Below are positions 8,847 to 58,534 of a stretch of 64,000 nt of DNA, one piece after another. Within the stretch, counting starts at the first letter, position 1; each line of letters opens with the position of its first letter. The notes under the pieces are model-generated. The model saw nothing but the letters and a program-made list of their open reading frames with translations. It searched no databases and was not told the DNA's origin. Position numbers and translations under genes: made by a program. Origin of the DNA: Trichoplax sp. H2 (Eukaryota). The stretch is taken from NCBI GenBank assembly GCA_003344405.1, contig NOWV01000181.1:74001-138000 (forward strand). The letters run 5' to 3'.

Positions 8847-11596
8847 AATTTAATTTGTAAACTAGCTCTTATATTTTGCTATGAATTTGGTTTTCGCTTG
8901 GTTATGTTGCACCCTGTCTCTTGTTAATTAATAATTTGGGTCTTTATTTGACTTTGCTAGTAATAAATATAATTTACCTCGTAGAAAGTTAGAGTGGATT
9001 TCAGTGTTATAGCTCTCATAATAAATGAACGTATGCATGAAAATGCTATCACCATCAGAAACTAGTTGTGATTCCTTCAATTCGATAAAGAAATCAATTT
9101 GGATTATTAACATAAATATGAGAATTACAAAATCGTGAAGTATTTATAGTATATTGCATGGACTATTGGTATAGTTAAGCCTAAAATAGGCTGCAACTTT
9201 GCGTAATACAATTATAGCTGGATGTGGTACATCTGGAGTTAGGGTAAGGATAGACTTCACCTATTTATCTTTTCGTGTGCAATGTTTAATAATATGTCGT
9301 TGATCGGGACTGTAAGCTAAACATTTGACTGTTAGAACAACATTATGATTCAAGGTCAGAAAGTGAACTAATAATGCTTTCATTCATCTATCTAGCAAAT
9401 CTATCTCGTAGCATGCTACTATTATAATTAAAGATGTATTTCTAATGTGTTTGCTACTGTACTGAACTAATTCTACTTCTCAATCTTAACCATAAAATAC
9501 TTTCGCTCTTATATTTGGTAACATTAATTACCAATATTCGAAATGATGCATAGACTTCGATAAAATTGATAGCAGAATAAACCGTAATTCAATACGAGAA
9601 ATGCTTATTACTGTAATTACTTATAGTCTGAATGAAGTATTGGTGCGAGTTAATGAACTCCCAAACTTTATGTAGCCATAATCTTTCGTAAAAAACGCAT
9701 GGAGTCTTACAGATGTCAATGAAAGGCGAATTCTAAGTCTTTCTCAGACATTTTTTTAAATAAAAATTTTTAAACGCCATAGTTTAGATATTACGATACA
9801 AGTTATTTGAGTTCTAAAATGTTTCAATTGCTATTTTTACTTAAAGAGATGTTTAAAAATGACATACTAGAAACGCTGAAGACAACAATAACGACCATTA
9901 ATATCATAACTACTTATTCCATATAACTATATCTTACATGATAGCCACCAAATCCAATTCGATCCACAATAATTATCCTAAGAGATAGATAAACCGCGTA
10001 ATTGTTCACGATCTAACATTTAAAAAGTTCCTTGCCTTATAATTGGAAAATCCTGAACATTTTGAATATTACCTCAATAAATAATTGGATACATAAATCC
10101 TCTACTAATTAGTTTCAATTACCTTAAATTTAGCCGAGAAATACATAACTATTTCGCAATATCACAAGGCATTGCAGATTTTGGTAAAAGGATTATCGGG
10201 GTTCGTACTGGCTGCGACTAATTTTAGTAATTTATCGGCTTTGCTAAGATAAAATATAAAATAGCAACGTAAGCTTAGATAATTAATAAATTTATTCATA
10301 ATATTTACAATCTATTAAAAGCAACATTTGCTCGCACGTTCATATTACTATATTAAGTAAACCCTTTTAGTATTTAACTTCGTTGCTTAACATCAGCTCA
10401 CATTCTTGCGTTATTAAGCATGCTAAAAGTTAAGCGTAATTATTTCCAGAAATCACTCTGCAATGGCTATCTTCAGACAGCAAAATAGAGCGAAATAGGT
10501 GTCAATAGACTATTAGCAAACTAACCTTTCTGCAATTTATAGAAGGAATTAATCTACTGACAAAGAAAGAGAGATCTGCTACTAATAAGATATAAATTAT
10601 ACAGTGATATATCTCGATAACGTAGAGAATGGAAACTAAGGATCACGTCAGACGAGATTGCATTGGAATATTCACGCTCTGATAAATCAAGTACATCAAG
10701 TCTAGAAAAGAGTACTGTGAAATTATATTATCCGTCTAACAGATTTACTAAATACTTTAGTAAATGATGATTGGATACTTATCGGTACCAAGTAATTGTT
10801 ATACTTTATTCACATTGTATCAATTGAAGTATATCTGCATAATTAGAAATATAACGTACTTTTATTGAAATAGAAGAATAAATCATCTATTGTAGTTACA
10901 ATTAATTACATTATTATTATTATCATCCATGGACTTCTACCTGTTATTAATTAGTGAGCAAAAAGAATAGTTACAGTTTCCAATCGTGATATATAATACC
11001 GTTCTCAAAACACGTGATGTGAAAGAATCCAACTGTTGCACTGATAAGTATATTTACGGCCTAAAGTTGATAGTTTATCTAGTAGAAAAGATTCCGATAA
11101 TAACAAGTCTAGACCATTGTAATAGACCTACTGCTACTTCGTTAGGTTGGTAGTTTAACGATCTTCCGGTCGTAGACAAACTTCGATTCTTAAATAGCGT
11201 AGAAACGCCTAACTTTAAAGAATAGTTAACAAACCTTAAGTTACTAGCACATTTGGGCATAGTCTAGAAGCTGTCAGTCCCAGCTCTCAGAACGTGGTAT
11301 AAGAGTGAATACTATACCGGTACTTTACTGTTTCATTATCAGCTACGGCCACTAACATAAAATATTTTGCGCAAACCATTACAACCATAAAATGATCATT
11401 GGTCTTCGAAATCATAGAAAAACGAATAATAACGTTACACAATCCAAGGTAGTCAAGTAAGACGAAGAGTAACAGAGTATACTCGCACTGCTCTTTGAGG
11501 CTCTTTTATTGTTAGAATTAGAGATAGAAGAAATGGTGAAGATTTAAAACATGGAAAGATAATTTCATTGTTTCATTTAGTGAAAAGTCGTTGGAT

Positions 11597-12616
11597 ATGG
11601 CAAGTACAAATAAAATTGATAGCCTTACGCCTTGTGATAGCCAATCTAAGGAGAAAAAATCCATCATGGAGGACCTTAGAAACTTAATTACGACTGGTGG
11701 AAATGAACAGCAACAAAACAACTACGAACAGGCTTTAATAACCTATAACGAAGCTTTAGATCGAATTAATTTCGTAACGATGGTCGAAGACAAGGACGAG
11801 AATGAATATTATCATGGTCTTTATTTAGAAATCTATCGAGAAATGGTTAAAATTTACAAGAAACTACTTCGTTATGAAGATATCCTGTGGATTTATCAAA
11901 AAATGTTAAAAGTGCAAATTGAAGTATCCGGAGAAAAAAGTCAAGATGTAGCTAAAATCTATGAAAAGATTGCGTATGGTTATGATAGTCTCAATCAAAC
12001 CCATAAAGCTATTGCCATGTTTGAGAAACATCTACATATTAAATTAGAATTATATGGCGAAAATAGCCATGAAGCTGCTGATGCTTATTTTGATGTTGGA
12101 TTAGAGTATGAGCGCCAATCACATCATTATAAAAGTTTGTCTATGCTTAAAAAATCATTACGGATTAAAATAAACCTTCTTGGAGGGGAGCACTACGATC
12201 TTGCCAGTATCTATAGTATGATTGGCGATATATATACTGATCAAGATAAATTTAAGGAAGCAATCGCCATGTACGAAGTCTGTTTAACTCTTGAAGTACG
12301 TCAATATGGAGATAACCATCTTTGTATTTCAAATCGTTATAACTCTATTGCATGGGCTTATCAATGCCAAGACCGATACAATGATGCATTGGGCTTGTAT
12401 CAGAAATCATTAAATATAGTTGTTGAATTATTTGACGAAAATGATGATCATATCCTCGAAATCCAAGAGCAAATTGCTTTAATCTCTAAAGAACAACATC
12501 AGCAAAAAAATTCTAAATTGATACCACAAGATAATCTTCAGAGCAATGAAGATGCCGCAACAGTAAATGAAATTATAATCAAGGAAGGTGATCAATCAGT
12601 AGGTAATGCTCATTAG
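11597..12616 (+). CDS. Intronless TPR protein (~339 aa) with 42-aa kinesin-light-chain/NPHP3-type repeats
   Basis: Open frame from ATG 11597. About 5-6 repeats of the form G..H.D.A..Y..IG..Y..Q.++.EA+.MY.K.L.I. Confidence 0.9.
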   Translation: MASTNKIDSLTPCDSQSKEKKSIMEDLRNLITTGGNEQQQNNYEQALITYNEALDRINFVTMVEDKDENEYYHGLYLEIYREMVKIYKKLLRYEDILWIYQKMLKVQIEVSGEKSQDVAKIYEKIAYGYDSLNQTHKAIAMFEKHLHIKLELYGENSHEAADAYFDVGLEYERQSHHYKSLSMLKKSLRIKINLLGGEHYDLASIYSMIGDIYTDQDKFKEAIAMYEVCLTLEVRQYGDNHLCISNRYNSIAWAYQCQDRYNDALGLYQKSLNIVVELFDENDDHILEIQEQIALISKEQHQQKNSKLIPQDNLQSNEDAATVNEIIIKEGDQSVGNAH

Positions 12617-13496
12617 CCAAAAAAAATATTCATCTAGTCTTATCTTATCGATTTTATTTATACCAATTCTTAGCCGATTTAGAATTTATAAATATATATT
12701 CCTTACTATAGTTACCTGTTCTTGAAATTTCGTTATTGGTTTCGGTTCTATCTCACTTTAATTGCGGTTATCACGATATCAGAGGCGATTCTTAATGTAA
12801 ATTTAATCCAATTGAGATTAGGTATATAAATCAGTTCTGATAAAGCACCGATGATAATTATGAATTTAACATAACGCTAATTAATCATAGTTACAAAATC
12901 TATTCACTAGCTCTATTAATGGCTACGATATTTCTTGAATGAAGCACTTGAAATTGTCGTATTACAGTCAAATCAATCATTTTGACTATAAAATCATACA
13001 CATTAAACAAGAAAAAATTAGCCAATCATAAAATTGCTACATAATGTTTGGTAAGCTTTAAATTGCAGTATAATCAGCTTAATTTAAATTAGTTTTCGTT
13101 TACTACTGTCTCGCTTATGATTGGAGTAATTCCAGCTATCATGCGCTGTAATCTAATGTGAAGTCAACTTCTTATTCTAAATGGGTAGTTTCTACAGTAC
13201 AGTAGTTAATACGGTTGAAATTTCACTTGCCAGATAGCGAATGGGGCGCTGCTCATGCTTACAAAGTTTGAGAAGTTTGATTTTTAAATGAAATTGATAT
13301 CGTCAAATTTTCTGAATCATCAGCACTAATTAAACTAGTAGAATTTCAATTCTATCATTTACTTGTATTTCTACAGCCATTAGCTTGTGTATATGATAGT
13401 GAAATAAAAATTGACTAAGTGCTAGTAAAGAGATACGCGTATTCTGTATATAAAATTATCGCTGAAATACTAACAACTAAACCAAATTTGATGTAG

Positions 13497-16400
13497 TTTA
13501 TAATTTGGAAAAAGAAGAAAGTACAAATGATGGTCGTTATGAAAGCCCAGTGGCTAAAAATGTACCTTTTAATTCTTTTAAAGCTAAAATTAATCCAGCC
13601 GAAAAGCAAGCCGGTAAGATATTTCATGTCTCTAGTTTGGATCTACCAGTGTTCCAAGGTAATACTGACCGAATTATCAATATAGTTTGCAGTGCCATGA
13701 TGTAGGTTATTACATTATTATTTTTCCTAGTATTAGAGAAAATTTGCATAACCTATATTCATATTCCTAATAGGGAAAAATATTCTTACAAGATCGAGTC
13801 ATTTATTACCTGAAGATGATCATAGTATGAATGACAACCGATTACAAAAGGCGACTAGCTTACAGGATAACGTACCAAATCCTAATAAGCAACCAAATAA
13901 ATTAAAGAAAGTTAATATTATCAATTCAAGGATTTATATTGTTGACGAGTTACAGGAAAAAATATCGAAAGGAGGCCTGAATCGCTCCGAAGAGAATGAG
14001 AGCAACTCTAGCTTACCAACTAGTAAATCGGATTCCGAAATTAGCACTAAAATTTTAATACCCGAAAGTAATTATGACACTCCAGGGCAAAATAAGTCTA
14101 TTAGCGTAATAGATCCCAAGTACGATAATTCAGTATTTGATAGCATTGTTAAAACTGAATTCAAAGACTTGGAGAAATCTGAAACTAAGCTGTTTTTACC
14201 TGAGAACAGACCCTATCCGCCGATCAGACAGCCTCGCCGTAAGATGAACAGTCATCCAGCAAGTACTAATTTAACTACTAATACAATAAACCTATCTAGT
14301 CACAGCGATGATAGGCATTCAATAGCTGTAAATTTCAGTGAAGAAAGGAGTCAATCATGCATTGAAGAACTACAAAATGATAGTAATCAGTCTATGAAAA
14401 AATCATCAAGCTGTCCAAACACAAGTATGAATAAGAGTCCTACTAGTCAGAAGAAATCCAAATTTAAACCAGACGATTTTTGGCTTAGTAGAAACCTCGC
14501 TACATCGAATGAAGATAGCGTAGCAAAGTCTAGGAATAATACTATGAATAAGTCTCCAACGGAGAATAAATTTAATAATAGATTAAATCTAGAGCAGCAA
14601 AATAATTATCAAAATGTCAACACATACAATCAATCAAATCTTAAACCTAGCCAAATTCGTGGAAAGGCCTCACAGCAGAGTGACCCTGAAAGTTCTTCTC
14701 ATGATAACATTCAGCAATTAAATGGGAAAAACACATTGTCTAATAGCCAAAGTAATCGATCTCCCAGTAAAACATGGCAAGCTAGCAAGAGTAATCAGAT
14801 CATCGAAACTACAAGCAAAAATGACTGGAGCCATCCATTACAAAAGGAAATTACTAATCCATCATCTACTAAGAAGAAAGTCGTTAGTACTCAGTCTAAG
14901 CTAGATAACCGATCTTTAATAAGCAACCCATCGAACGAAGAGAAGTCCGTTTCGATTGAATTACCTGTTCTAGACTACACTAAGTATTCTCAGGAAATCA
15001 AATCCAAGCGGAATAATAGCTCTGGACGCCAACATGATAGCAATACTTTGATGAAGCACAAATTCCAAGCATCTTCAACAAATAATGACACGTTTGATAA
15101 GAATAGACATCAGCAGAAAAATAATGTGAAATTTAGAAAGGGTTCGACATCAAGCAGTACTGAATTTCCAGATGAAGGTATTATTTGGCAGAAAAATACG
15201 AACAAGATTTCGTCAGAAAAGAAAGCGCAATGTGCTAGTCCTGAATCTCCTAATGAAGTTCAATCCAAACATAAAATAAAGCTAACGTCAGGCATTAAAT
15301 CTAATGAAACAGACTTTAAAGTTCAAGTAGAAAGCAACCAACAGCAACAAGATTATAAATCATTCAATTCTGTAAATAGGTGTAAATCAAATAGCTCATC
15401 ATTTCAGAACGATGGCGGACCAATTCCTAAAAGTAATACAGGAATCTTGTCTACCGACTTAAAGCAAAAAGATAGTGCTAAACCAACCTCAGCGAACCAC
15501 TCGAAATTAATTAATTCTAGAATAGGAAATGATGGTAAACCTATAATTAAAAGTAAACCTAAATTGGGTCCTGGCGCCAATTCAGTAATGCGAAATAAAG
15601 GTAGCAGTTTATTTCCTAAAGATTCTTTCAAATCAACTCATACTGAGCCTAGCCAAAGCAACGAGAGGCCAACTGAAAATAATTCCAAATCTTCAGTGAA
15701 TAATGATGGTCATGATTCATGGCCCCGAAATACGTACCTATCCAGATCAAGGAGTTCTGATGTTGTCCACCTAGATAAATATTCGTCTGATGATATAATC
15801 AAGCTTACTTCTAGTTCTCCCCAGCAGAAACTAAATTTTTATATAAGCGAATCAGAAGCGAACCTTTCCGTGACGGGAGATGTTTGTAAATTGGATGATA
15901 AATCGGAGACTTCACCACAGGACGACGTTAATATCGTAATAAATCAAAGTAAAAATCGCAGAATGCATCATACTATTCAGATTACGAAAAAATACTCAAA
16001 GCAAGAACAACTTGATCAAGTGAGTAAGGTAAATTCAGATGTACCTAAAGGAATTAAAATACAAGATAATTTTTGCGACCCTTCGACTCTGGTATCAACC
16101 GTTGCAGCGAATAAAAGTCGCGACCAAAACCGTAAAGAACTTACGCGTATGCCAGAAAATCAGCTAAGAGAAAGACAAAATATGGGAAACGAAATTCCAG
16201 CCCATCAATTCAAGCAAGTGAATTTACAAGAAAATAAGAATGCACAACAATCCAAGGCTCAATTTGGCAGCAATCAGGACCATTCTCAGCAAAATCAACT
16301 ACCAAATCAATTCAATGATAAAGAATCTTTAGGCTGGCAAAATACGAACCATAACTATACTCCTGAATACCGGTCTGTTGAAATGCAACAGTTTGACATA

Positions 16401-19400
16401 CAGCATGCTCAAAATTCTAAAACGATGTCTCATAAAGCCTCTATTACTGGCAAGAAAGGAAGTGCATATTCTAATTCCCAAGTTCGCTCATTCAGTGCTA
16501 AAAATAATTACCATGGACAAAATAACAATAATGGGGATCAAGCCGAATTTCTAGTTAGTAGGCAATTAAATCAATCGAAATTAGAAGGTCAGTATAACTA
16601 TTATAAAATGATAGTAGCATTTCCTACAAAATACAACAGCAATATACTGATTGTAATGATCATGTTCTAGACACTAAGGATAAGCCCGTAATTAAAAAGA
16701 GCATCAGTGTCCAGAATGAGCATAGCGGAAAATCAGGTAATAATTCATCTAAAGCTCAACAAGATGTTACTGGGCAAGAAAAGAATATTAATAATGACAT
16801 CAATCGTTCGCGTAATATTTTGATAACTGACACAGATACACAAATAGTAGCATATAGGCCAGAATTACCACAAAAAATGCAAGTAATAGCATCATCTCCA
16901 GGTAAGTCTTTAGGTAATCAAGAGTGAGATACGTCGTAACTTAAAATCATTGCCAATTTCATTTCAGTAATCTATCCATACATTTATCTCTATCGAAGTA
17001 GGAGATTCGGCTGTTTCAGCCCAAATAGTGTAATTTCTATAATTAATCTAATTTATTTATGTACTTTTCTCTTTGTAGTGTTATGTTTTCATATCAGATT
17101 TACACGGACTATTTAGCAAAACTTATAAACTAATCTTATCACTTCTATAGAATTGATTTAACTGTACAATCTGAAGATTTTAAGTATACGGTAGCTAATT
17201 ATAACTATTGCTAAAATATCTCACATGTTAATATTTCATTAGATCACGATGAGTATCCTGAGCTATCGGCTACATTCGAATCAGTACCTAATAAAGTCTT
17301 CTATTTCGAAAGCAGTAAAATTTCTGGCCTACGAATTACATTTCCAGCTCAGGAAAGATCTAATAAAATCCGAACTCGCATGGTTATTCATTATGCTGAT
17401 CCTCCATATTCCAATGAATTAAAGGATCAGTCGATCATTCAGTTATCTTCAATCATTAAATTAGATAGCTATGATGCCAATCGTGGTTATAAACCTTCCA
17501 TACTCTTACGATTACCAATTCCTTTGGCAACAAGAATTCTTGAAATATATAAAATTGACTCTGTGCAAGCATTACCGGTGAAGGTTTTATATCGTATTAG
17601 CGAGTATTTTCCTACGTGGGAAAAGCTAAATATAGACTACCAGTATTGCTTTGAGAATCAAGGTGGTCACTGCATAACAATTCCAATTTATCGTACTGGA
17701 TATTACGTTCTTGGATACCAATATCAATCAGATAGTTTCAATTCAAACTCATATCATAGTCTATATTATGTCTTTCCAAGTCTACAACAAGAAGTTAACG
17801 TCTTAGCAGTTCTTTCTGCTATTCAATCACAGTCTGATCATGTTCATTTAAAATTTTTTGTGATCCGTAAGGGAGAAAACTCACAAAGTATAATTGACAA
17901 AATAGCACCACCCTACCGGGAGACTTTATTACAACATACTGGACTTGAGTATGCCATTCTAAGCAATGGCAGATATAAAATGAATTTCTTACCAAAAGAT
18001 ATTACCTGCGAAGATAGATTTCAAGATAAAAACATAACCGTAAATTGGAGCCTTCGCCATTATATTTGTATCGATATTCAATGTCAGGTTATTAATCGTG
18101 ACAAATTGAATAATTTGTGTGTAATAAAGTTAGAAAGATTGGATGAGAGTCATGACATTCTGGAATGTTATCTAACTATGGTTAGTAAAATGAAGGCTTT
18201 CCTGTAATCTTAAAGATACATTTACACAGATTTTACTTGTCGCAAATCTTGAGCTGATTCCAATCTTCCCTCAATGCAATTTTAATGAGCTCTGCCACCT
18301 TTCTTTTTCAGCCTAAGCTTTCAGATCATCGCTCTAAAAAGTTGTCTAGAACTAGACGAAAACGACTACAACAGTCAATACTAGTACAAAGTAAGTACCA
18401 GTACCTTAATTAGTAATTATTGGATAGGTAATCTGTATCAGGTAGTGCAATAGCCGAAAAAGGCGTGGTATGTTGATGCTATAAGTCATATATAGTCATA
18501 TTCTAGTAGAATTAAGAGTAAATTAAACTGTCAGTTGAATACGATGACTGACTACCGTACTCTTTCTTGATTTCAGATTTCTTAGATAATTCAGTAAAGC
18601 TTATCAAAACTGTAAAATTTATTGTAAACTGCTGCATTAATCGAAATACAAAGATATCTTAATATCTTCGGTGAAGATATTAAACTACTGCTTTATTTAT
18701 TTATGCTACTTGTAGAAATCGCTGAAAATTTAACAGACACTTCTGAAGATGAATTTGGTGAGTGTATCATTTTAAGTCAGATCTTAAATCTAAAGCTACG
18801 TAATTTAAATCTTATTGAAACATCGCTTCTGAAATATCAATTATACTGGTGACCTGACACTACTCTTAAAAATTTATGATAAAACACTTCTCAAGATTAA
18901 ATCATTGCTTATATTAGCGATAATTATTCTATCTTTAATAGCTAAATACTCGAATATAATATGTTAGAGAAACTCATGATATCCGTGATATAATAAGGGG
19001 AAAAATAGAATAATTATAGTAGCGACTTGACACCGCTCTTCAAAATTTACTAAATAATTCTCAATATTAAATTACTGTTTATTTATAGCGTTAAATTTTC
19101 TAACATTAAAATAATTGTTCGAATACATAATTTTTAAAAAGATATCGTATCATAGCAAGGGAAAATTGAAGCTACTATAGTGGCGAATTAGCGTCACTCT
19201 TCCAGACTTGCTTTAATAGTTCTAACGATTAAATTATCTTTACAGATGAAGATAATTATTTCTATCTTCGATAAAACATTCTCAAATGCACAATTTAAAA
19301 GAAGCATTATATTAAAATAAGTGCCTATAAGGACTATATTGCAAAACATGTGGTACAAGATTTATCATACATTAAAAGACATTCTATTGCGTCTACCAGA

Positions 19401-19982
19401 TCACTTTTACTTTAGGACAAGTGACAATAAATATAATCGATATTAAGATAAAATTTTTATTCTAGCAGTAAATTAAAAGCAGATTTGGATATTAGCCAGA
19501 TCTTTTAAACTGACTCCTGATTTAGCTGTAATATAATAAACCATATCATGGTTATAATTTATCCATGTTAATTTGAAGTTAAAAATTTATTGGCTTCGAA
19601 TTCAATTCATATCGAAAATGTAATTGTATATAATGTCTATTTTTCTCTGCTCTTAATAGCTCATAGGAAATTAGAAATGAGCTTGGACATCATTCGAGTC
19701 ATAAATAAGCATTTGAAAATTATTTTGGAATCCATTCCATTGCTTGAATTAATATATGATCTAAGAATAGATCGTGTACTTAGCGATGATAATGTCGTCT
19801 ATTTGAAAGAAATTCGAGGCCAGAAAGAGAGAAATTATGCCTTTATTTTACTTTTGCAGCAACGGCAAGATCGCGATTTTTACAAATTTTGCAAATTATT
19901 GCAAGAACATCAGGTTAAATCCCTTAATAAACTAGGCATGCTATTAGAAGCAGAAGCCCGAAACAGAGACACTATCGATTAA
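13497..19982 (+). CDS. Multi-exon ~1500-aa protein: long S/N/Q/K-rich disordered region, ZU5/UPA-like module, C-terminal CARD
   Basis: Phase-consistent GT-AG exons 13497-13613, 13774-16587, 16671-16901, 17243-18180, 18312-18390, 18716-18757, 19660-19982. Exon 4 has ZU5-like SGLRITFP...LSSIIKLD...ILLRLPIP...WEKL. The last exon is CARD-like (IINKHLKIILESI..L..DL...VLSDDNV.YL.....KERN..FILLLQQR..RDFYKFCKLLQE). The start codon is not identified and probably lies upstream. Confidence 0.75.
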
Positions 19983-20530
19983 ACCCTCTCAAACTGTACA
20001 AATGGAATGCTTTAACAAAAAAATATAATCAGCTGCCTTTGTAAGTAAAAGCGTATTGCTCAATTCAAAAAATTGTAATAATTTTAAAGTAAATGATCCT
20101 TCCTGGTGCAACAGTATCTGTTGGAGTTCTATGATATCATAAACTTTAACAAATTGATTTTATGCTACAATTACTCATCCAAAGAATGATACTGCGATAT
20201 AATAACATTTAACCGTTTTATAAGAATTCGCTGATTTAAATAGAGGATAAAAAGGGCAACGTTGTGTAACTACAAATCAAAACGTGAATTGTATTTTTAT
20301 AGCAAATCACTATATCTATGTGCATGTTGATAGCGACTATCGGTTGCTGATATCAGAAATGGCTTAATGTAAGTAAATTGTATTTAATTGTGTTATGTTA
20401 GCACTTTATTATTAATTAATAGGCATATAAATATTAGCCAAGTGCCAAGATTGATAAATTATACTTAACTATTTTTGTAAAGATATACGAAATGATAGCT
20501 TGCTTTTATGCTCTGTGAATCTTCAATTAA

Positions 20531-27607: not shown

Positions 27608-30077
27608 ATTCGAATGAGGGCAGACCCTAACTCAGGATACGCTTCGTACTTAAAGTGTACACAGGTAAGGTATCCTGTAGTGTAGAAACAGGCCTTGGTT
27701 CGAGAGTCGTGAAGGATTTAACTCGGGACTTGAAGGAGAGAAATTTTCATTTTTACATGGATAACTTCTTCACGAGTACCGAGTTATTTCTGGAGCGACC
27801 ATCTAAGGGGGTATATTGCTGCGGAACTGCCAGGCAAAACCGTAAAGGTTGGCCTCGAGAATTGCGTGGTAATAGAATCGTGAAGAAGCGAGGTGATAGT
27901 AAAAGTTTACAGTGCGGTACACTAGCAGCCTCAATTTGGTATGATAATAAACAAGTTCGTTCCTTGTTTATTACATGCACGAATCCATAAGCGTCAACGA
28001 TAAAACTTAAACGCAAATCTGGTGATTCAATTGAGGTCGCTAGTCCATCAGTTGTACCTCATTATGTAAAGTTTATGGGAGGTGTGGGATAGGACTGATC
28101 AACTCAGAGCTGCCTATCCTACCAGGAGAAAGTCCAGAAAGTGATGGAAGTACCTTTTCTGGTTTTTATTAGATCAATCGATTGTAAATACATTCGTCTG
28201 CTTGTTGCAATCTGCTGATCACTGAAGGACAACGAGATCAGGGAAACACCGAAGGCGAGGACCGAAGCAGTTTCGAACGAAACTAGTGAAGCTACTAATT
28301 TCGACTTTCCTAGGGAGTCGAAAGCGTCTTTTTGATTCAAATAGGTTTGAAGACAATGATATACACTTGGTAGTGCCATCGAAGAAACCTCGTAGATGTC
28401 ATTGCGGCGCGAAGAAGTTCAAATAAAGAAAGCAAACAAAATTGGAATGCGACTCGTGCAAGGTAAACTAGGATGAACTCTTCAACGTAACATAACATAT
28501 ATATAAGCGATTAATAAATCGTCATCTATTTATCTCTTCATCAAATTAGATTGGCTTGTGTGCTGAATGCTTCAAGCCATACCATGAAGAACTGAAGAGG
28601 ATGCGAATGACTTTAGCTAAAGGCTGTAGCCACTGGGATAGTACTAGTTTAATTTAATTTGTGTTAATTGATAATGCCCAGCTACCAAGCTCCTGTTATT
28701 GCGTTGCTTAGGTTTTAGGTTATATAAATTTTAGCTGGTACTGTTTTTAGTTATAAATTGTGTATATTCAAGTTTCGTTATTGTTTTGAAATTTCTGGCG
28801 ACAGCCACTGTGCTTCTGTAGTAATTAACGATGAATGTAGCTTATATAGTTTCCCTAGATAATGCTATTTAAAAATTTACGCTCGCATTGCCTTTTGTGT
28901 TAGTAGCTAATATGCTCCTGATAGAAATTATATACGATTGCCTTTGAGCCAGCTTCAGCTGCTTCCTCATTCCTTGTTATAATTCAGATGTAATAAATTT
29001 AAATCTTTACGTATTTCTAACTTGCAGTATGATTGTGATATTTGGGGGATATGCTTAAAAGCGCTGCAGAATAACATAAGCTTAGCTTTATTGATACGAA
29101 ACTAACTATGCATCGTTTCAAACCTAATCAATCTCTAGGTTTAAACATTATCAATAGATCAGTTTATTACATTGCAAGTATTATAACATGAAGCTCTTGG
29201 TCTCTACATGAGTGACAAGTACAGCAAAGTGAAGGAATGAGACTAAGTAAACCTGAACAAAAGTTTTGTGTCCATTACGATTTTTTAAATAATATTGAAG
29301 ATTTCAATAAGCTAAAATGATCTTAACATTTCTTCTATTACTTCGCTTTATGCTCGTTGTAGCTTAAAATGTTTCCTGAATCAAGAGTAACATATTTTCT
29401 TGAATCATAGGCTTGTATTTTAATTTTTGATTCGATAGTTACTAACCCTGCATAAATATTAGCTTTGTTCGTTCGATAGATTGTTTATTTAAAACTAGTT
29501 AGTGTAACCTCCCAGGGAATTGTTTTTCTATACGAGAAGACCTAACGTGTTGCTCACGTATATCTATGTAGTTTCTAAACTTCTTGAAATAATTGTTAGT
29601 GAGGATCCTGAAAGGATCCCTACTCTCGCAAGTACACTACTTGTAAACTTTTCTATAAGTTCTATAGGGTAGTCCATAGCAATTCCTACTAACGTATAAT
29701 AATATTGCTAATTTATTCAACAATAAGGGCGATATGTTACCGTCGCCAGTGCATTATCAAACATAACTTATAGTCAAAACTTAATTATGATTTCTTCCAA
29801 TTTGAACTTTTAATACTTATTGGTTAAGGTACCCAAAAAAATTTACGACTGTGCTCTCCTCTACGAATGGAACTTTATTGCTGAACTAATTTCCAACTAA
29901 AAACGATTACATCAAATGAAATTTTACAGAAATAGTATAGATACCTTACCAATAGCTCTCTACTTTTTGAATGGCGTAATCTTCACCGAGCAAATGGCTT
30001 ATAAGGACATTGTTTAAACGTAAGAGATATATGATAAAGTCAATCCATTAGAGCGGCTGCACGAAATAAAGGGTTAA
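27608..30077 (+). mobile_element. 5'-truncated, inactivated piggyBac-superfamily DNA transposon with right terminus
   Basis: Transposase motifs ADPNSGY, KVYTGK, MDNFFTS, GTARQNRKG, WYDNKQV, FMGGV/DRTDQL, RRKSRK*WKYLFWFLLD and a Cys-rich tail (coding remnant 27608-28657, several stops and frameshifts). Terminus ...gcacgaaataaaGGG at 30073 followed by TTAA at 30074-30077. No matching left TIR seen. Confidence 0.9.
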
Positions 30078-32720: not shown

Positions 32721-32740
32721 NNNNNNNNNNNNNNNNNNNN
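32721..32740. other. Assembly gap (20 N)
   Basis: Run of n characters. Confidence 1.
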
Positions 32741-35190: not shown

Positions 35191-37953
35191 ATGTCCGATC
35201 CTGGAACATTTCTGTGATAATCTACAATCTATCATAAGTAAATTATAATTACAGTGATTTGAATTGTAAGAAGATTATTCTCGATTCTCTAATTAAACAA
35301 TTAATTTTAGTAGGCTGTATAATCACCATAAAAGCAAGTGCTACATTTAAATGTCTTATATCTAAATTAGAACTCTTCATATAAATTTAAATCAACAAAA
35401 TTATCCTAACATAGATGTTTGTACTATAATCTCGATTTTACAGTGTATAACATTACTACATGTTACAGTGTTATATACTGTAACAGGTAGTAATTTATTA
35501 AGATCGCACTTAGCTCTATGCATCGATAAATCTTCTGGTTACTTATTAATTAATCGATTTGTAAGGTATCATACCTAGTATCGATTAATTAATTACACAT
35601 TGTATTTGGTATGAAATATATTATCACCAACTTTAATCCGATATAAATCATAAAATTATTCATAAGTATATATCAAAGATTTGAATGAAAATTTTGACCT
35701 AGATTAACTTTTCTTAATCATTCCTGTCACAGGCTTACCACTTTTTCACAATTAAATTCATATTACAAAATACAGTTACAATTAAAAAGTAAATAAAATA
35801 GAGTTGGTTAACACCATAGAGAATTACTATTATAAATTTAGAGAATTTCACGAGAAAATAGTTGAGTCTTGACTGAAAAATTAGTTAGATATACTGTACA
35901 ATTTACAATGATAAGCAATTACTAAGTAGTTTCTCAATAAAGAGAATCATAAACTAGTAAATATAGCATAAAGAATCTCTATAGCTAAATCGTCATGAAT
36001 GTTTTCCAATTATAAATGAACTTTAATTATAATTATTAGAATATACTGATAGCAAACGCATAAGGAGAAATATCTAAATAATTAGAAATAATGGGTGTAA
36101 AATTTGTACTAAGCAGACATTAGCTATGAAGCATGTAATCAAGAATTGACGGATGCTATAGTGCTTCATAAGCTATACGATTATACTAACTTTTACTTAA
36201 ATCTCCGGAAGTAAAGTTACCCCAATAAAATAGTTTTCCCTATAAATTACATCGATCAATTAAATAATTATAAATCTATCAGGAGCAACAACAATTAAAT
36301 TACGGTAATAAACTATTACAATATATGTAGAGAGCATAACACCTGAAGATTTTGTTTAAGCTATGAAAAAATATTAAGCGAAGCAGTACAAACTTCACTC
36401 AAAACTATTATTATCTATGACAATGTTCGATACATAAATTATCGAACATTTATTTTGTTTCGATAATTTGACAAGCTTAATAATAAGATATCTGCTAAAG
36501 TTAGAATGAAACTTTGTACAACAGAGAGCTTATTTCATCAACACAATATTCTACGGAAATCATAACAAATACTTTCATCTGTCCGTCTTATTTCTTATTC
36601 CGATCTGTGTCGTAAGAATGCAAATAGTATCTAGGACATTGACATAATATTTATAATTACAAAGCTATATGGTATAGTAAACAGTTGAGAGTTTTATATT
36701 GGGAGGGTTTATGGCTTTTTAGCTATTGTCAGCAGTTTAATTTAATCCATTACCAAATGAGATAGTCAATTATAATGTCACACATAGCATAATAGGTCAA
36801 TTATAATTGTGCCTGTAGGCAAATTGAGTACGCATTATAGATCAATTGACAAAACGATTTGGTCATAGTCATCTAAAAAAGAATTTATTGTTATTCTGAT
36901 ATACTTATATTTCAGTAGCTGTGAAGCGTTTCTGTATCATTATGATGCAACATGTTTCTCACATTCTTTAGTTATATTATATTATGCCAAAAATAAAATA
37001 GGAAACCGATTAGAAATGGTTATCGAAGAGGCCATAGATAAGATCTATTAATTTGAATGAAATAAGTTCTTTTTAAATCTGCTATACTATGCAGCGCTCA
37101 TGCTGTGGTTTGTAATCCAATACTAGCTTTTATATTACTCAGCTAAGAATGAAGAAACATTTTACTGCCCTATTTGTATAAGTAATTTGACCTTAATTTA
37201 TTGCAATCAACCATGTCGTACTGAGCATAAAAGATATTGGCAGGAAATACTTTAGATTGCCGTTTCTAAAAGCATTATACGCGAAAATTTCTGTTCGAGA
37301 CACTTGTTGATATGACTACGTAATAACAGTTTACCCGGTAACTGCAAAATATTTTGATAATTAGGCCATGGTGTATATACATAATCTCTCATGACCTCTC
37401 CAGCCCAAAAGGGCGCTAAAGAGAACGATCTAGATCACCATAGTAACAGATGTAGGCATTTCTATTGCATTTTATTTTTTACGATCATTTTATTCTTATA
37501 AAATCAAACTGGTAGTAGACTTTTCTTTGGTAGCAATTTGAAATAGTACCGGAATCGTGCCATATTTGTTATGGATTTTACGATAGCTGATGATTGTTGA
37601 TAATAAAAGAGCGAATCAAGAAATTAATTGGTTCAGAATATTGACAGTCATGCTTTTATCACCATTTCTTAATCACCAATTGTGATTTAAGCTTTTTTTG
37701 ATCGATTAAGTCACATGGTTAATGACGCAAAGCACTGCCTAAGTAAATAATTCCGATGTTAATTCAAAGTCGTACTGACAACGATATTCTCCTACTTAAT
37801 TAAGAATTTAAGTTTGAAATCATAGCAGTTCGTAAACTTCTCATGTATCTGTAAAAACTAAGAGTAACATTCGAAAATTAAAAGGATATCCAACTCACAG
37901 GTTTTAAAAAAGTTCATCAACTTCATCAATCAAAAAGTAAGAAGCAACTTACG

Positions 37954-40599
37954 ATGGGTTCTGGTAGCAGTCTACAATCTAGAACGGTAGACTATAACGC
38001 AACGGCAAGAGCAATGATAGCAAAGGGTAAACGACTTCTAGATAAAGGATTATATCAAGAATCGCTTCAAGAATATCAAGATGCTTTGCAAGAGATGGAT
38101 ACCATTAATTCTACAAATCCTAATAGATCAAGTAACAAATTGGATAACCCCATGCTAGATATTTATCATGGCATGGCGATAGCTCATGAGAAACAAAGCG
38201 AATGGAGAGATGCAGAATCAGTGTATTATAAAATGATTCTATTGCAAGTCCAATTAACCGGAGAGAAGACCGTTCAAGTTGCTGATTTATATCGCCAAAT
38301 GGGAAAATTATATTCAAAATTAAGCCAATTCAAAAAAGCTTTAATCATGCTTGAAAAATCCCTTCAAATTCGATTAGAATTATTTGGGATTGAAAATTTA
38401 AAAGTAACGGAAGCTTACGATGACCTCGCGTTGTATTATTGCCGAATGAATCGATTTCATGATGCCCAAAACAATTATGAAAAATCATATAATATCCGTT
38501 TAAGGGAATTAGGCCAAAATGATATCGAAATCGTCAAATCATATAATAATATAGCAGATGTTCATATGCAGCAATGCCATTATAATGAGGCTTTGTCCTT
38601 CTATCAAAAATCGCTCAATCTTTGTAGACGAATTTATGGCGATAAACATCGTGATGTCGCTCAATCCTATCAACACATAGGTGATGTTGCTGTTAAACAG
38701 TTGCGATATGAAGAAGCGGCGGTCATTTATCAGACATGTTTAAATATGACTTTGGATTTATTTGGCAAAAAGCATGAAGATATTGCTCTTATATATATTA
38801 AAATGGCTGATATGAATATTCAGCAATCGGAATATCACGAAGCCATGAGTTTGTGTAAGAAAGTGCAAAAAATGTATCAGCAAATGGATGAAAAAGAAAA
38901 TCCAAATTCTACAGCACTAACGTTAAAAATAGCTAAAGTCTATCATTTACAGAGAAAATATGATTCTGCTTTAGGATTACTGCGGAGTCTATTGACAAAA
39001 TTAACTCAGGTATACGGGGATAGGCACGTTGATATCGCTGCTACTATGGAAGCTATATCAGAAGCGGTTTATGAACTTTTTGAATATGAAACAGCACAAG
39101 ACACTTTTGCTAAGACTTTACGTATGCGGTTAGCATTAACTGGCGAAAATAATGTCGATGTTGCGAGGATATATTTTCGCTTAGGTGATATTAACTATGC
39201 CCGAGGTAATATTCCTGAGAGTATCAAATCTTATCTTCGATCTCTAAAAATTCGTTTAATCGTCTTCGGAGATAGCCATCCATCTGTTGCTGAAGCCGGA
39301 GATAGTATCGCGTTTATTTACATGATTTTTCGTAAGCATCATGAAGCTTTGGATTTATTCGAAAAATCGCTCAAGATCCGCTTACATGTGAATGGCGGAA
39401 TGAGTCCTAATACGGCTGCATCTTATAAAAATGTTGCTGTTATTTACTCCAAAGTTGGAAGACTGGAAGATGCCCTAGAAATGCTTCAAAAATCTCTTGA
39501 TATTCGCTTGCATCTAACTGATGGCAAAAATAAAGATGTTGCTGTGTTATACGAAGAAATTGCAACAATCCATGCATTACAATCTAAATATGAAGAAGCA
39601 ATTACCGCGCTAGAGACATCATTAGAGATTCTAATACCCTTAGTGACGGAGGAACACCGGGATGTTGCCAATATTTATCTTCGTATCGGGGAAATATATA
39701 AAGCCCAAAAATTGTATAACAGGGCAGAGTTTTACTATCATAAGTCATTAACAAAGTTAATAGCAGCTATCGGGGATAGCAACTTAGAGGTATCTGGTCG
39801 TTATGAGGAATTAGCTTACGTACAATACTTGAACGAGGATTATGATCAAGCAGAAGTTTTATATGCGAAAGCTTTGGACATTCGTTATACTGATCTGCGC
39901 CAAATAGACGAAAAAGTTGCAGAGTTGTTCCAGATACTGGGAACTATATACATGAAATTAGAAAATTATAACGACGCTCTAATGGTTTTAAATAAAGCTG
40001 TCGATGTTAGGACTCAGCTATCAGCTGATCGCAACAGTGATTCTTTTGCCAATTTGTATCAAAATCTAGCTGCAGTTCATACTAGACAATCAATGCAATA
40101 TAATGCACAGCCTCTATTACTTAAAGCTTTAGCAATTCGAATTAAATTACACGGAGATAACAGCATTAATGTTGCTAATACATATGAGGCTATGGCTCAT
40201 GATTATCAGCAACGCCAGCGATATCAAGAAGCTCTTACCATGTATCAGAAGGCCTTAAAAATTGCAGATGATCAATTAGGACCTACTCATATATTTGTTG
40301 CTCAATTATATGATTTCATCGGAGATGCCTACAAAGACTTGCATGATAACAAAAATGCAAGAACCATGTATCAGAAATCATTACAAATTCAGGCTGATGT
40401 ATTGAAATTAGAGAATCAAGACGTTTTAGACTTGTACAGTAAGTTAACTGATCTCATTCAGCAACAAGGAGATTCTGAAGACGCTGCTTTACTGTTAAAG
40501 CAGGCTAAACTTTTGCACCAGAAATTACCAACCTTAACTACAAATAATATTTCACTTAGTAAATTAAAATACATTTTCTGGGAAGGCAATCGGTCATAA
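37954..40599 (+). CDS. Intronless 881-aa TPR solenoid protein (about 19 repeats of 42 aa) with an N-myristoylation-type start
   Basis: Long ORF with repeats such as YGDKHRDVAQSYQHIGDV..KQ.RYEEA...YQ.CL. N-terminus MGSGSS. The N-terminal helices are homologous to the 11597-12616 protein. Confidence 0.93.
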   Translation: MGSGSSLQSRTVDYNATARAMIAKGKRLLDKGLYQESLQEYQDALQEMDTINSTNPNRSSNKLDNPMLDIYHGMAIAHEKQSEWRDAESVYYKMILLQVQLTGEKTVQVADLYRQMGKLYSKLSQFKKALIMLEKSLQIRLELFGIENLKVTEAYDDLALYYCRMNRFHDAQNNYEKSYNIRLRELGQNDIEIVKSYNNIADVHMQQCHYNEALSFYQKSLNLCRRIYGDKHRDVAQSYQHIGDVAVKQLRYEEAAVIYQTCLNMTLDLFGKKHEDIALIYIKMADMNIQQSEYHEAMSLCKKVQKMYQQMDEKENPNSTALTLKIAKVYHLQRKYDSALGLLRSLLTKLTQVYGDRHVDIAATMEAISEAVYELFEYETAQDTFAKTLRMRLALTGENNVDVARIYFRLGDINYARGNIPESIKSYLRSLKIRLIVFGDSHPSVAEAGDSIAFIYMIFRKHHEALDLFEKSLKIRLHVNGGMSPNTAASYKNVAVIYSKVGRLEDALEMLQKSLDIRLHLTDGKNKDVAVLYEEIATIHALQSKYEEAITALETSLEILIPLVTEEHRDVANIYLRIGEIYKAQKLYNRAEFYYHKSLTKLIAAIGDSNLEVSGRYEELAYVQYLNEDYDQAEVLYAKALDIRYTDLRQIDEKVAELFQILGTIYMKLENYNDALMVLNKAVDVRTQLSADRNSDSFANLYQNLAAVHTRQSMQYNAQPLLLKALAIRIKLHGDNSINVANTYEAMAHDYQQRQRYQEALTMYQKALKIADDQLGPTHIFVAQLYDFIGDAYKDLHDNKNARTMYQKSLQIQADVLKLENQDVLDLYSKLTDLIQQQGDSEDAALLLKQAKLLHQKLPTLTTNNISLSKLKYIFWEGNRS

Positions 40600-58215: not shown

Positions 58216-58534
58216 TGATTGATCTGAATAGGAATATATAAAGTATTATTCCTGCTATTCTTGCCAGAAGTCTATTGTTTTCTTCGACAGTAAATGCTAA
58301 TGACCCATTACGTCGAACAAGATGATAATAGACGCCAATTTGTGCTTAGCTCCGTAATCTCCATATGCCAACTTATCCATTTCTTGTTGATTGTATCAGC
58401 AATAAAAAATCGATAGGTAAATGCTAGAGATTTCATTAAAACAACACTTCAAAGCGATAAATCACAATAACCATTAGAATCTAAGTATAGAGAAATTTAC
58501 GAATTTATGGTACTAATGCTTTAGTTTGGCCATA

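What the first reader, a model, noticed from the sequence alone, without database searches (positions are those of the whole stretch)
13497..19982. Unusual architecture: ~1050-aa disordered region, then ZU5/UPA-like module, then CARD
Seen: seven phase-compatible exons join four separate ORF-track entries into one ~1500-aa protein. Known: ZU5-UPA proteins normally end in a Death domain (PIDD1, UNC5, DTHD1), whereas ZU5-UPA (FIIND) plus CARD behind a disordered N-terminus is the design of the inflammasome sensor CARD8. Inference: this may be a CARD8-like or PIDD-like sensor, convergent or ancestral, in an early-branching animal. I could not see a clear autoproteolysis motif (SF/S or HFS). The equivalent position appears to read YRTGYY.
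Basis: partly seen in the sequence, partly recalled or inferred. Interest (0 to 1): 0.72.

Follow-up and report, generated by a model that had tools for sequence, protein, structure and literature searches.

The report
Placozoan TPR–ZU5/UPA–CARD protein without self-cleavage site
This is a real, expressed Trichoplax gene whose protein joins a TPR region, a long disordered stretch, a ZU5-UPA fold and a probable CARD, resembling the human inflammasome sensor CARD8 in layout but lacking the self-cleavage motif that CARD8 needs to work.

Summary
The window is Trichoplax sp. H2. The seven exons at 13497-19982 are exons 3-9 of the annotated gene TrispH2_009717 (1876 aa; exact exons).

They add about 360 aa of N-terminal TPR and are joined by one spliced contig.

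The single-exon middle domain has no Pfam hit. Its AlphaFold model (pLDDT 84.6) matches ankyrin, UNC5b, NLRP1 and CARD8 ZU5-UPA structures.

It belongs to a small family in which every named member is placozoan. Of 12 paralogs, 8 keep HFS at the ZU5/UPA junction, and 4 of 14 scanned relatives carry Death domains. This protein reads RTG there, with no Phe and no Ser, in register with the HFS of a PIDD-like protein.

The C-terminal exon is probably a CARD. Four weak lines agree.

The best reading is a non-self-cleaving ZU5-UPA-CARD scaffold or adaptor, in which a CARD stands where paralogs carry a Death domain. It shares CARD8's layout, not its mechanism. It is a new variant of a known kind, of moderate interest.

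The parts
11392..11456 (+). Annotated exon 1 (aa 1-22). The 5' end is uncertain.
   Evidence: Part of the exon set that reproduces P0002. No contig shows the 11456/11581 splice. The X4 and X5 contigs start at 11472 and 11473, inside the annotated intron. The start codon may therefore be the in-frame ATG near 11597 in exon 2 (position worked out by me).
11581..12602 (+). Exon 2: N-terminal TPR region (about aa 22-363)
   Evidence: Pfam TPR_12 at E 4.4e-31, plus TPR_10 and others. X4 contig 5 joins it to exon 3 across an 894-nt GT..AG intron.
13497..13613 (+). It is internal and has no in-frame ATG. An alternative donor at 13658 adds 15 aa in frame.
   Evidence: X4 uses donor 13613. X5 uses donor 13658, with only 27 nt on the shorter side of the joint.
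13774..16587 (+). Exon 4: the bulk of the 1054-aa low-complexity, probably disordered region (S 15%, N 12%, K 10%, Q 8%)
   Evidence: No credible Pfam hit at E<=1. Composition. Covered by spliced contigs in X4 and X5.
16671..16901 (+). Exon 5: end of the disordered region
   Evidence: Junction 16587/16671 is seen in X4, X5 and X14. Junction 16901/17243 is seen in X4 and X5.
17243..18180 (+). Exon 6: the complete ZU5-UPA module on one exon (ZU5 about residues 1-160 and UPA about 164-312 of P0001)
   Evidence: AlphaFold model: pLDDT 84.6, pTM 0.79. Foldseek: 4d8o at 5.9e-10, 3g5b at 3.1e-7, 7crw_A at 4.5e-5. VIA-align: 3f59_D Z 10.7 with rmsd 3.2 over 132 residues; 7crv_D Z 9.5 with rmsd 3.7 over 128 residues.
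17692..17700 (+). Codons for R-T-G, at the column where paralogs have H-F-S (the ZU5 autoproteolysis triad)
   Evidence: Alignment A1. hhalign register with the second HFS of P0019. No variant was reported at these bases in the X4 and X5 contigs covering them.
18312..18390 (+). Exon 7: linker with a polybasic stretch (RSKKLSRTRRKR)
   Evidence: Junctions are seen in X4 and X5.
18716..18757 (+). Exon 8: short acidic linker
19660..19982 (+). Exon 9: probable CARD (six predicted helices) and the stop codon
   Evidence: Pfam CARD at E 0.015, 15.8 bits against a cut-off of 23.9, covering profile positions 3-81 of 85. ESM Atlas: 29 of 30 hits fall in clusters where CARD is the family shown, best score 0.93. 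AlphaFold single-sequence model: pLDDT 63, six helices. The best structural matches are CARDs.

Best explanation
One expressed Trichoplax sp. H2 gene (TrispH2_009717) encodes, in order:
- a TPR region (about 360 aa)
- a disordered region (1054 aa)
- a ZU5-UPA module (313 aa)
- a 40-aa charged linker
- a CARD-like death-fold domain (107 aa)

The ZU5-UPA module is a divergent member of a paralog family in which every named member is placozoan. Most members keep the HFS self-cleavage triad, and several end in a Death domain, as PIDD does. In this member the triad reads RTG, so the protein should stay a single chain.

I infer that it works as a non-cleaving scaffold or adaptor. The TPR and disordered parts would bind partners or inputs. 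The ZU5-UPA would act as a structural module that positions or masks the death-fold domain, as in the UNC5b and ankyrin ZU5-UPA-DD supramodules. The CARD would recruit another CARD protein. The CARD-caspases and Apaf-1-like NLRs that Kamm et al. 2019 report in this species are candidate partners.

Shown: the gene structure, its expression, the ZU5-UPA fold, family membership and loss of HFS. Inferred: CARD identity (probable), lack of cleavage, masking of the CARD, and the partners.
For: Gene and splicing.

Fold: all 7 Foldseek matches with E<=0.001 are ZU5-UPA proteins, namely ankyrin-B/G, UNC5b and rat NLRP1. VIA-align separates a ZU5 half and a UPA half at low rmsd.

Family: phmmer against 1.84 billion representatives gave 18 proteins at E<=0.001, counting the protein itself. 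Of the 10 looked up, 6 clusters carry Trichoplax names and 4 carry no name. Among the 14 relatives scanned, Death domains occur in 4 and ZU5 above Pfam's cut-off in 2.

Motif: of the 12 paralogs covering the column, 8 read HFS, 2 HFC, 1 HLC and 1 ELA. This protein reads RTG. hhalign of the family profile against a PIDD-like LRR-ZU5-ZU5 protein gave probability 98.3% and E 2e-14, with its HFS aligned to RTG.

Fold kept: this protein shares the family's nearly invariant fold positions (D52, P54, Y55, L67, S68, P91, C143, Q181, N241, G242, Y244).

CARD. In an unbiased scan of 48,161 chains, nearly all of the top 26 entries are CARDs, and the first Death domain is at rank 27.
Against: Each line of CARD evidence is weak on its own. 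Pfam is below its cut-off. The model has pLDDT 63. Foldseek E-values are about 1. VIA Z-scores of 5-7.6 lie in the range that helical bundles reach by chance. phmmer against PDB found nothing.

Neither the window's ZU5-UPA exon nor the whole protein matches Pfam ZU5, UPA or FIIND. The family profile found no ZU5 protein in PDB by sequence.

The ZU5-UPA has the longest terminal branch in the family tree, 1.91 against a median of 0.45. Differences among RNA contigs are 15 nonsynonymous to 9 synonymous. Constraint may therefore be relaxed.

Only one contig, from one study, links the TPR exon to the rest. No ortholog from another placozoan could be retrieved. No experiment shows absence of cleavage. 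A non-canonical cleavage, or cleavage by another protease, is not excluded.
Confidence: 0.6

Rival explanations
1. It is a CARD8/NLRP1-like sensor. The ZU5-UPA self-cleaves, the N-terminal TPR and disordered part is degraded on a danger signal, and the freed UPA-CARD fragment oligomerises and activates a CARD-caspase.
For: The layout after the TPR is the same: a long disordered region, ZU5-UPA, a short linker and a CARD. The NLRP1 and CARD8 FIIND structures are among the fold matches: 7crw_A at 4.5e-5, 7jn7_B with probability 0.97, 7crv_D with Z 9.5. Most paralogs keep HFS, so the family is probably autoproteolytic in origin.
Against: The triad reads RTG, with neither the buried Phe nor the nucleophilic Ser. 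Passages of PMC3210808 say that mutating either residue abolishes CARD8 and NLRP1 cleavage. No other HFS, HFC or SFS lies at the junction. The nearby 'DSFNS' sits in a low-confidence insert after the last ZU5 strand, not at the motif column.
Confidence: 0.1
2. The C-terminal domain is a diverged Death domain. The protein would then be simply another ZU5-UPA-DD (PIDD/UNC5-type) paralog with an added TPR.
For: Four scanned relatives carry clear Death domains, three of them C-terminal to the ZU5-UPA. The CARD call is below Pfam's cut-off. Death domains appear in the structural list from rank 27.
Against: Pfam lists CARD, and no Death, DED or PYD family, at E<=1. 29 of 30 ESM Atlas hits fall in clusters where CARD is the family shown. 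The top structural matches by both aligners are CARDs of Apaf-1, ASC, NOD1, caspase-1, CED-3/4 and NLRC4.
Confidence: 0.15
3. The gene model is a fusion artefact. The TPR gene and the disordered-ZU5-UPA-CARD gene would be separate, or the locus would be a decaying paralog without function.
For: Only one contig in one run spans 12602/13497. The intron is 894 nt, and the TPR open frame runs on only 4 codons to a stop after the donor. The branch is long and 15 of 24 coding differences are nonsynonymous.
Against: The junction is canonical GT..AG and in frame. Exon 3 has no ATG of its own. An X5 contig ends exactly at the 12602 donor. A frame of 1876 codons stays open in DNA of about 31% G+C. It is spliced correctly at the seven junctions of exons 2-9 in RNA contigs. 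A paralog (P0007) also combines TPR with ZU5-UPA.
Confidence: 0.1

Closest known systems
CARD8 (human) and the FIIND-CARD end of NLRP1
   Same: The order is the same: a disordered region, ZU5-UPA, a short linker and a C-terminal CARD. The fold matches rat NLRP1 FIIND (7crw_A, 7crv_D) and CARD8 (7jn7_B).
   Different: The SF/S or HFS cleavage motif is absent, replaced by RTG. An N-terminal TPR region is present. There is no sequence-level match to Pfam FIIND. The nearest sequence relatives are placozoan Death-domain paralogs, not vertebrate FIIND proteins.
PIDD1-type proteins (LRR, two ZU5, UPA, Death domain; two HFS sites)
   Same: The family profile aligns to the second ZU5 and the start of the UPA of a PIDD-like protein (P0019) at probability 98.3%, with the HFS column in register. 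Paralogs of this gene are ZU5-UPA-Death with HFS.
   Different: This protein has TPR instead of LRR, one ZU5 instead of two, CARD instead of Death, and no HFS.
UNC5b and ankyrin ZU5-UPA-DD supramodules
   Same: These are the best structural matches: 4d8o with Z 12.5 over 248 residues, and 3g5b at E 3.1e-7. The ZU5 is a non-cleaving structural domain; passages of PMC3210808 note a Leu in UNC5b at the position of the essential Phe of CARD8. This is the model for the mechanism I propose.
   Different: Those proteins are membrane-associated or cytoskeletal and end in a Death domain. Here there is no membrane or spectrin-binding context, and the end domain is CARD-like.
Placozoan paralogs such as TRIADDRAFT_54879, 52843 and 62553 (ZU5-UPA-Death) and 'Nephrocystin-3' RDD40932 / TRIADDRAFT_54880 (TPR-ZU5-UPA)
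   Same: True sequence relatives, with 27-35% identity over the whole 312-aa module at E from 1e-10 to 6e-66. One of them also has an N-terminal TPR region.
   Different: Among the 14 relatives scanned, none shows a CARD at Pfam E<=0.1 and none has a long disordered insert. Ten of the 12 covering the motif column keep HFS or HFC.

Membership tests
ZU5 domain (Pfam PF00791) | Sequence match to the ZU5 profile | tested here: not met
   The window's exon has no Pfam hit at E<=1, and the full protein has none at E<=0.1. Relatives do match: P0003 at 26 bits against a cut-off of 21, and P0019 at 1.6e-12.
ZU5 domain (Pfam PF00791) | ZU5 beta-sandwich fold, and homology by profile | tested here: met
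   Model residues 1-159 match ankyrin ZU5 (3f59_D) with Z 10.7 and rmsd 3.2 over 132 residues. hhalign of the family against the ZU5 of P0019 gave probability 98.3% and E 2e-14.
UPA domain / ZU5-UPA tandem | A UPA beta fold directly after the ZU5 | tested here: met
   Model residues 164-312 match the UPA of rat NLRP1 FIIND (7crv_D) with Z 9.5 and rmsd 3.7 over 128 residues. The whole model matches 4d8o with Z 12.5 over 248 residues. All 7 Foldseek matches at E<=0.001 are ZU5-UPA proteins.
Autoproteolytic ZU5 (PIDD, NLRP1, CARD8) | HFS or SF/S at the end of the ZU5, with a buried Phe and a nucleophilic Ser | tested here: not met
   RTG occupies the column where 8 of 12 paralogs read HFS, in register with the HFS of P0019. 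The requirement is taken from passages of PMC3210808.
Autoproteolytic ZU5 (PIDD, NLRP1, CARD8) | Observed self-cleavage of the protein | not testable with these tools
   This needs a blot of the expressed protein.
CARD (Pfam PF00619) | Profile match above the gathering score | tested here: not met
   15.8 bits against a cut-off of 23.9, at E 0.015, although nearly the full profile length is covered (positions 3-81 of 85).
CARD (Pfam PF00619) | Six-helix death fold closest to CARDs | tested here: inconclusive
   The model has six helices at pLDDT 63. The top Foldseek hits are Apaf-1 CARDs, but at E about 1. In the wide VIA search nearly all of the top 26 are CARDs, with Z only 5-7.6. ESM Atlas gives clusters with CARD as the family shown at 0.93.
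CARD8 / NLRP1 'functional degradation' sensors | A non-covalent N-terminal/C-terminal complex after cleavage, and release of UPA-CARD | not testable with these tools
   It depends on cleavage, whose motif is absent.
PIDD1 | LRR, two ZU5 domains and a C-terminal Death domain | tested here: not met
   Pfam shows TPR and no LRR, one ZU5-UPA, and no Death domain at E<=1 on the last exon.

The most novel reading that the evidence does not exclude
Placozoans assembled their own FIIND-CARD-like danger sensor, independently of vertebrates. The TPR and the 1054-aa disordered region would serve as a bait or 'tripwire'. Activation would release or expose the UPA-CARD by a route other than ZU5 self-cleavage, for example cleavage by a host or microbial protease in the disordered region or at the polybasic linker, or conformational opening of a closed ZU5-UPA-CARD supramodule. 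The released part would then assemble with a Trichoplax CARD-caspase or Apaf-1-like protein. That would be an inflammasome-like or PIDDosome-like platform in an animal without nerves or classical immune cells.
Probability: 0.15. Interest if true: 0.75.

Novelty: new variant of a known kind. Interest (0 to 1): 0.5.

Why it matters
In the papers I could search, FIIND (ZU5-UPA) joined to a CARD is described for vertebrate proteins: CARD8, NLRP1 and Xenopus FIIND-IAPs. Aravind's group mentions FIIND and ZU5-UPA fusions to TRADD-N without naming placozoans in the passages seen.

This gene shows that a placozoan-named family of PIDD-like, HFS-bearing ZU5-UPA-Death proteins exists. It also shows that one member has a CARD in place of the Death domain while having lost the cleavage triad.

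That gives a natural, non-cleaving ZU5-UPA-CARD for comparison. With it one can ask what the ZU5-UPA module does apart from self-cleavage, and how death-fold signalling platforms were built by domain shuffling early in animal evolution.

Tried and rejected
- The whole genome was not available, so no search for orthologs or further paralogs at the DNA level was possible.
- The search for homologous proteins with the middle domain gave only the protein itself at 'longer' lengths and nothing at 'near' lengths. It missed paralogs that full HMMER found, so these blanks say little.
- The search for homologous proteins with the CARD exon found nothing. The CARD therefore had to be folded without an alignment.
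- phmmer of the CARD exon against PDB found nothing at E<=10.
- hmmsearch of the family profile A2 against PDB gave only chance-level hits, E>=0.64, to the parathyroid hormone receptor and others.
- Complex prediction of ZU5-UPA with the CARD gave 'no answer' (scores 0.25 and 0.07 against a mark of 0.34; controls not run). It counts neither for nor against docking.
- The search of earlier findings returned nothing for this genome.
- In Kamm et al. 2019 (PMC6321704) the main-text passages do not mention ZU5 or PIDD. The six supplementary files held as text do not contain 009717. ZU5 appears once, for TrispH2_009842 (IRF, ZU5, DD).
- Literature searches for 'Trichoplax + ZU5 + death domain' (2 papers), 'FIIND + Trichoplax' (1 paper, on IAPs) and 'FIIND + ZU5 + UPA + invertebrate' (2 papers) showed no description of this gene or architecture in the listings and passages I read. 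A broader search on ZU5, CARD and death-fold returned 64 papers, of which I saw only the listing of 15.
- Considered and rejected: 'DSFNS', 17 residues after RTG, as a substitute SF/S. It is in an insert absent from the paralogs and has low model confidence.
Full report
**Identity of the locus**

The window is AT-rich eukaryotic DNA, about 31% G+C. The 312-aa product of the single exon 17245-18180 is 100% identical to part of one database protein, the hypothetical protein TrispH2_009717 of Trichoplax sp. H2 (P0002, 1876 aa).

Mapping P0002 back to the window, with GT..AG ends required, gives nine exons: 11392-11456, 11581-12602, 13497-13613, 13774-16587, 16671-16901, 17243-18180, 18312-18390, 18716-18757 and 19660-19982.

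**Expression and junctions**

Fifteen listed runs hold the stretch or a part of it. I laid four of them. The records are assembled contigs, so they show presence and joints, not expression levels.

- Spliced contigs in X4 and X5, which come from different studies, skip 16588-16670, 16902-17242, 18181-18311, 18391-18715 and 18758-19659. All five gaps have GT..AG ends.
- The metatranscriptomic RNA run X14 also skips 16588-16670.
- The refutation condition 'transcripts do not link the CARD exon to the upstream exons' is therefore not met.
- One X4 contig (2790 nt) runs 11472-12598, 13493-13612 and 13773-15315. It joins the upstream TPR exon to exon 3 and exon 4.
- Exon 3 has no in-frame ATG, so it needs an upstream exon.
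- X5 uses an alternative donor at 13658, which adds 45 nt in frame. Only 27 nt lie on the shorter side of that joint.
- Against the model: only one contig supports the TPR link. No contig shows the annotated exon 1/2 splice. An X14 contig (16917-17373) runs unspliced through intron 5.

**The parts of the protein**

*N-terminus.* Pfam finds TPR_12 (E 4.4e-31) and related TPR families in exon 2.

*Residues 363-1416.* This stretch gives no credible Pfam hit. It is 73.5% S/N/Q/K/E/P/D/G/T/R and 21% hydrophobic, against 36-42% hydrophobic in the folded parts. That fits a disordered region, but no disorder predictor was run.

*Middle exon.* It has no Pfam hit at E<=1. The family profile finds no ZU5 protein in PDB by sequence.

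Full HMMER against 1.84 billion representatives found 18 proteins at E<=0.001, counting the protein itself, and 11 at E<=1e-10. Of the 10 looked up, 6 clusters carry T. adhaerens or T. sp. H2 names and 4 are unnamed.

I scanned 15 proteins with Pfam: P0002 and 14 relatives. I left out P0014, P0016 and P0017, whose matches were many short stretches. The relatives show these domains:

| Domain | Proteins |
|---|---|
| Death, C-terminal to the module | P0004, P0006, P0010 |
| Death, N-terminal | P0005 |
| TPR before the module | P0007 |
| ZU5 above Pfam's cut-off | P0003 (26 bits against 21), P0019 (1.6e-12) |

P0019 is an LRR protein with two HFS motifs, that is, PIDD-like.

**Fold of the middle domain**

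With the 14-row alignment A1, AlphaFold gave pLDDT 84.6 and pTM 0.79.

- Foldseek against PDB gave 7 matches at E<=0.001, and all are ZU5-UPA proteins: ankyrin-B ZU5-ZU5-UPA-DD (4d8o, 5.9e-10), the ankyrin-spectrin complexes, UNC5b (3g5b, 3.1e-7) and rat NLRP1 (7crw_A, 4.5e-5). CARD8 (7jn7_B) follows at 9.9e-3 with probability 0.97.
- Whole-model TM-scores are low (0.28-0.38) and rmsd values are 13-16 Å. I attribute this to a different angle between the two halves, because VIA-align resolves each half cleanly.
- Residues 1-159 match ankyrin ZU5 (3f59_D) with Z 10.7 and rmsd 3.2 Å over 132 residues.
- Residues 164-312 match the UPA of rat NLRP1 FIIND (7crv_D) with Z 9.5 and rmsd 3.7 Å over 128 residues.
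- 4d8o overall gives Z 12.5 over 248 residues.
- GAIN-domain hits (CD97, BAI3; Z 8.5-9.2) also appear for the ZU5 half.

The second refutation condition, 'not a ZU5/UPA beta fold', is not met either.

**The cleavage motif**

In alignment A1, the column set where this protein reads I-Y-R-T-G-Y-Y reads as follows in the 12 paralogs that cover it:

| Triad | Number of paralogs |
|---|---|
| HFS | 8 |
| HFC | 2 |
| HLC | 1 |
| ELA | 1 |

- hhalign of the family profile A2 against P0019 gave probability 98.3% and E 2e-14. It puts the second HFS of P0019 on the family's 'hf' columns and on the window's RTG.
- In the model, RTG (residues 150-152) lies in the loop before the last ZU5 strand (152-159). 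This agrees with the description in D'Osualdo et al. 2011 of the motif on a loop just before a long strand at the end of the ZU5 (passages).
- RTG has neither residue, so canonical self-cleavage is not expected. This is an inference, not a measurement.
- RTG is not an assembly error. The X4 and X5 contigs cover 17692-17700 and no difference was reported there; the nearest difference, 17688 T>C, is synonymous.
- The protein keeps the family's nearly invariant positions, so the fold is maintained.

In a maximum-likelihood tree of 12 rows, this protein has the longest terminal branch (1.91; median 0.45). I dropped P0015 and P0018 because fewer than 200 of their residues were aligned. The next longest branch is P0008 (1.3), the ELA member. 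The placement of the window's protein is not resolved (support 74/82). Two cases are too few to claim a rule.

**The C-terminal domain**

Four weak lines of evidence agree on a CARD.

1. Pfam gives CARD at E 0.015 and 15.8 bits, below the cut-off of 23.9, over profile positions 3-81 of 85. No Death, DED or PYD family is listed at E<=1.
2. In the ESM Atlas feature search, 29 of 30 hits fall in clusters where CARD is the family shown. The best scores 0.93 with 202 of 256 shared features, in a cluster whose commonest phylum is Placozoa.
3. The single-sequence AlphaFold model has six helices at pLDDT 63.3. Its best Foldseek hits are Apaf-1 CARD and designs built on it, with TM 0.5-0.6 but E about 1.
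4. An unbiased VIA-align scan of 48,161 chains lists almost only CARDs in the top 26 rows: ASC, NOD1, caspase-1, CED-3/4, Apaf-1/caspase-9, Dark/Dronc, MAVS/RIG-I, NLRC4, CARD9, NLRC5 and BCL10. The first Death domain is at rank 27. The Z-scores are only 5-7.6, a range the tool warns can arise by chance for helical bundles.

I rate 'CARD rather than Death' at about 0.8.

**Mechanism**

Shown: one transcript, the domain order TPR, disordered region, ZU5-UPA, linker and CARD-like domain, the ZU5-UPA fold, and loss of HFS.

Inferred: the protein remains one chain. The ZU5-UPA then acts as a structural module, as in UNC5b and ankyrin, which are the best structural matches. The CARD recruits a CARD partner.

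Passages of Kamm et al. 2019 report for this species two neighbouring caspase genes with an N-terminal CARD, and many Apaf-1-like NB-ARC genes with CARD or death-like domains. These are candidate partners.

A test of ZU5-UPA docking to the CARD gave no verdict and is not used.

The CARD8-type mechanism, release of UPA-CARD after degradation of the N-terminal fragment, requires prior cleavage. It is therefore unlikely unless another protease does the cutting. The polybasic linker and the long disordered region are places where that could happen, but nothing tested here supports it.

**Constraint**

Differences between the window and the RNA contigs number 24 in coding positions, 9 synonymous and 15 nonsynonymous. 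The runs mix strains, and perhaps a second organism label, and the counts are small. This suggests at most weak to moderate constraint. On the other side stand an open frame of 1876 codons in AT-rich DNA and correct splicing.

**Novelty**

The gene is annotated only as 'hypothetical protein'. It is absent from the main-text passages and the six held supplements of the placozoan immunity survey.

My searches found no description of a placozoan ZU5-UPA-CARD in the listings and passages I read. I did not read whole papers, and subscription journals are not covered.

It is best filed as a new variant of a known kind: a ZU5-UPA death-fold protein with a CARD in place of the Death domain, an N-terminal TPR region, a very long disordered insert, and a degenerate cleavage site.

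Noticed in passing
window 18312-18390 (aa 1730-1756 of P0002): The linker between the UPA and the CARD carries a polybasic run (RSKKLSRTRRKR), followed by an acidic exon. It could be a nuclear localisation signal or a dibasic protease site. This was not tested.
   Followed up: no
window 11392-11600: The annotated first exon and its splice (11456/11581) are not seen in the contigs laid. The X4 and X5 contigs both begin at 11472 or 11473, inside the annotated intron, and an X4 contig runs unspliced over 11179-11494. The true start may be the ATG near 11597 (position worked out by me).
   Followed up: partly
window 13614-13658: An alternative 5' splice site in run X5 adds 15 codons in frame to exon 3. 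The shorter side of the joint is only 27 nt.
   Followed up: partly
window 37882-40596 (+): A 905-aa open frame is made almost wholly of TPR_12-type repeats (E 1.2e-108, 14 stretches). It is a second TPR gene of the nephrocystin-3 / kinesin-light-chain type, about 18 kb downstream.
   Followed up: no
window 27631-27987 (+): A 119-aa open frame matches the DDE_Tnp_1_7 transposase family (E 2.4e-18, profile positions 185-277 of 349). It is probably a fragment of a transposon.
   Followed up: no
window 58517-59368 (+): A 284-aa open frame carries GNAT acetyltransferase domains (Acetyltransf_18 at 4.6e-29, Acetyltransf_1 at 3.4e-11).
   Followed up: no
window 32721-32740: A run of 20 N marks an assembly gap.
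   Followed up: no
P0003 (TRIADDRAFT_52770), P0019 (unnamed), and TrispH2_009842 in a supplement of PMC6321704: Other architectures occur in or near the family. P0003 has two tandem ZU5-UPA modules, both with HFS. P0019 is an unnamed PIDD-like LRR-ZU5-ZU5 protein with two HFS motifs. The survey's table lists a Trichoplax IRF2-like gene with 'IRF, ZU5, DD' domains.
   Followed up: partly
window 19983-20500 and beyond: The X4 and X5 contigs run at least 520 nt past the stop codon and over the end of the stretch laid. This may be a long 3' UTR or an overlap with a neighbouring transcript.
   Followed up: no
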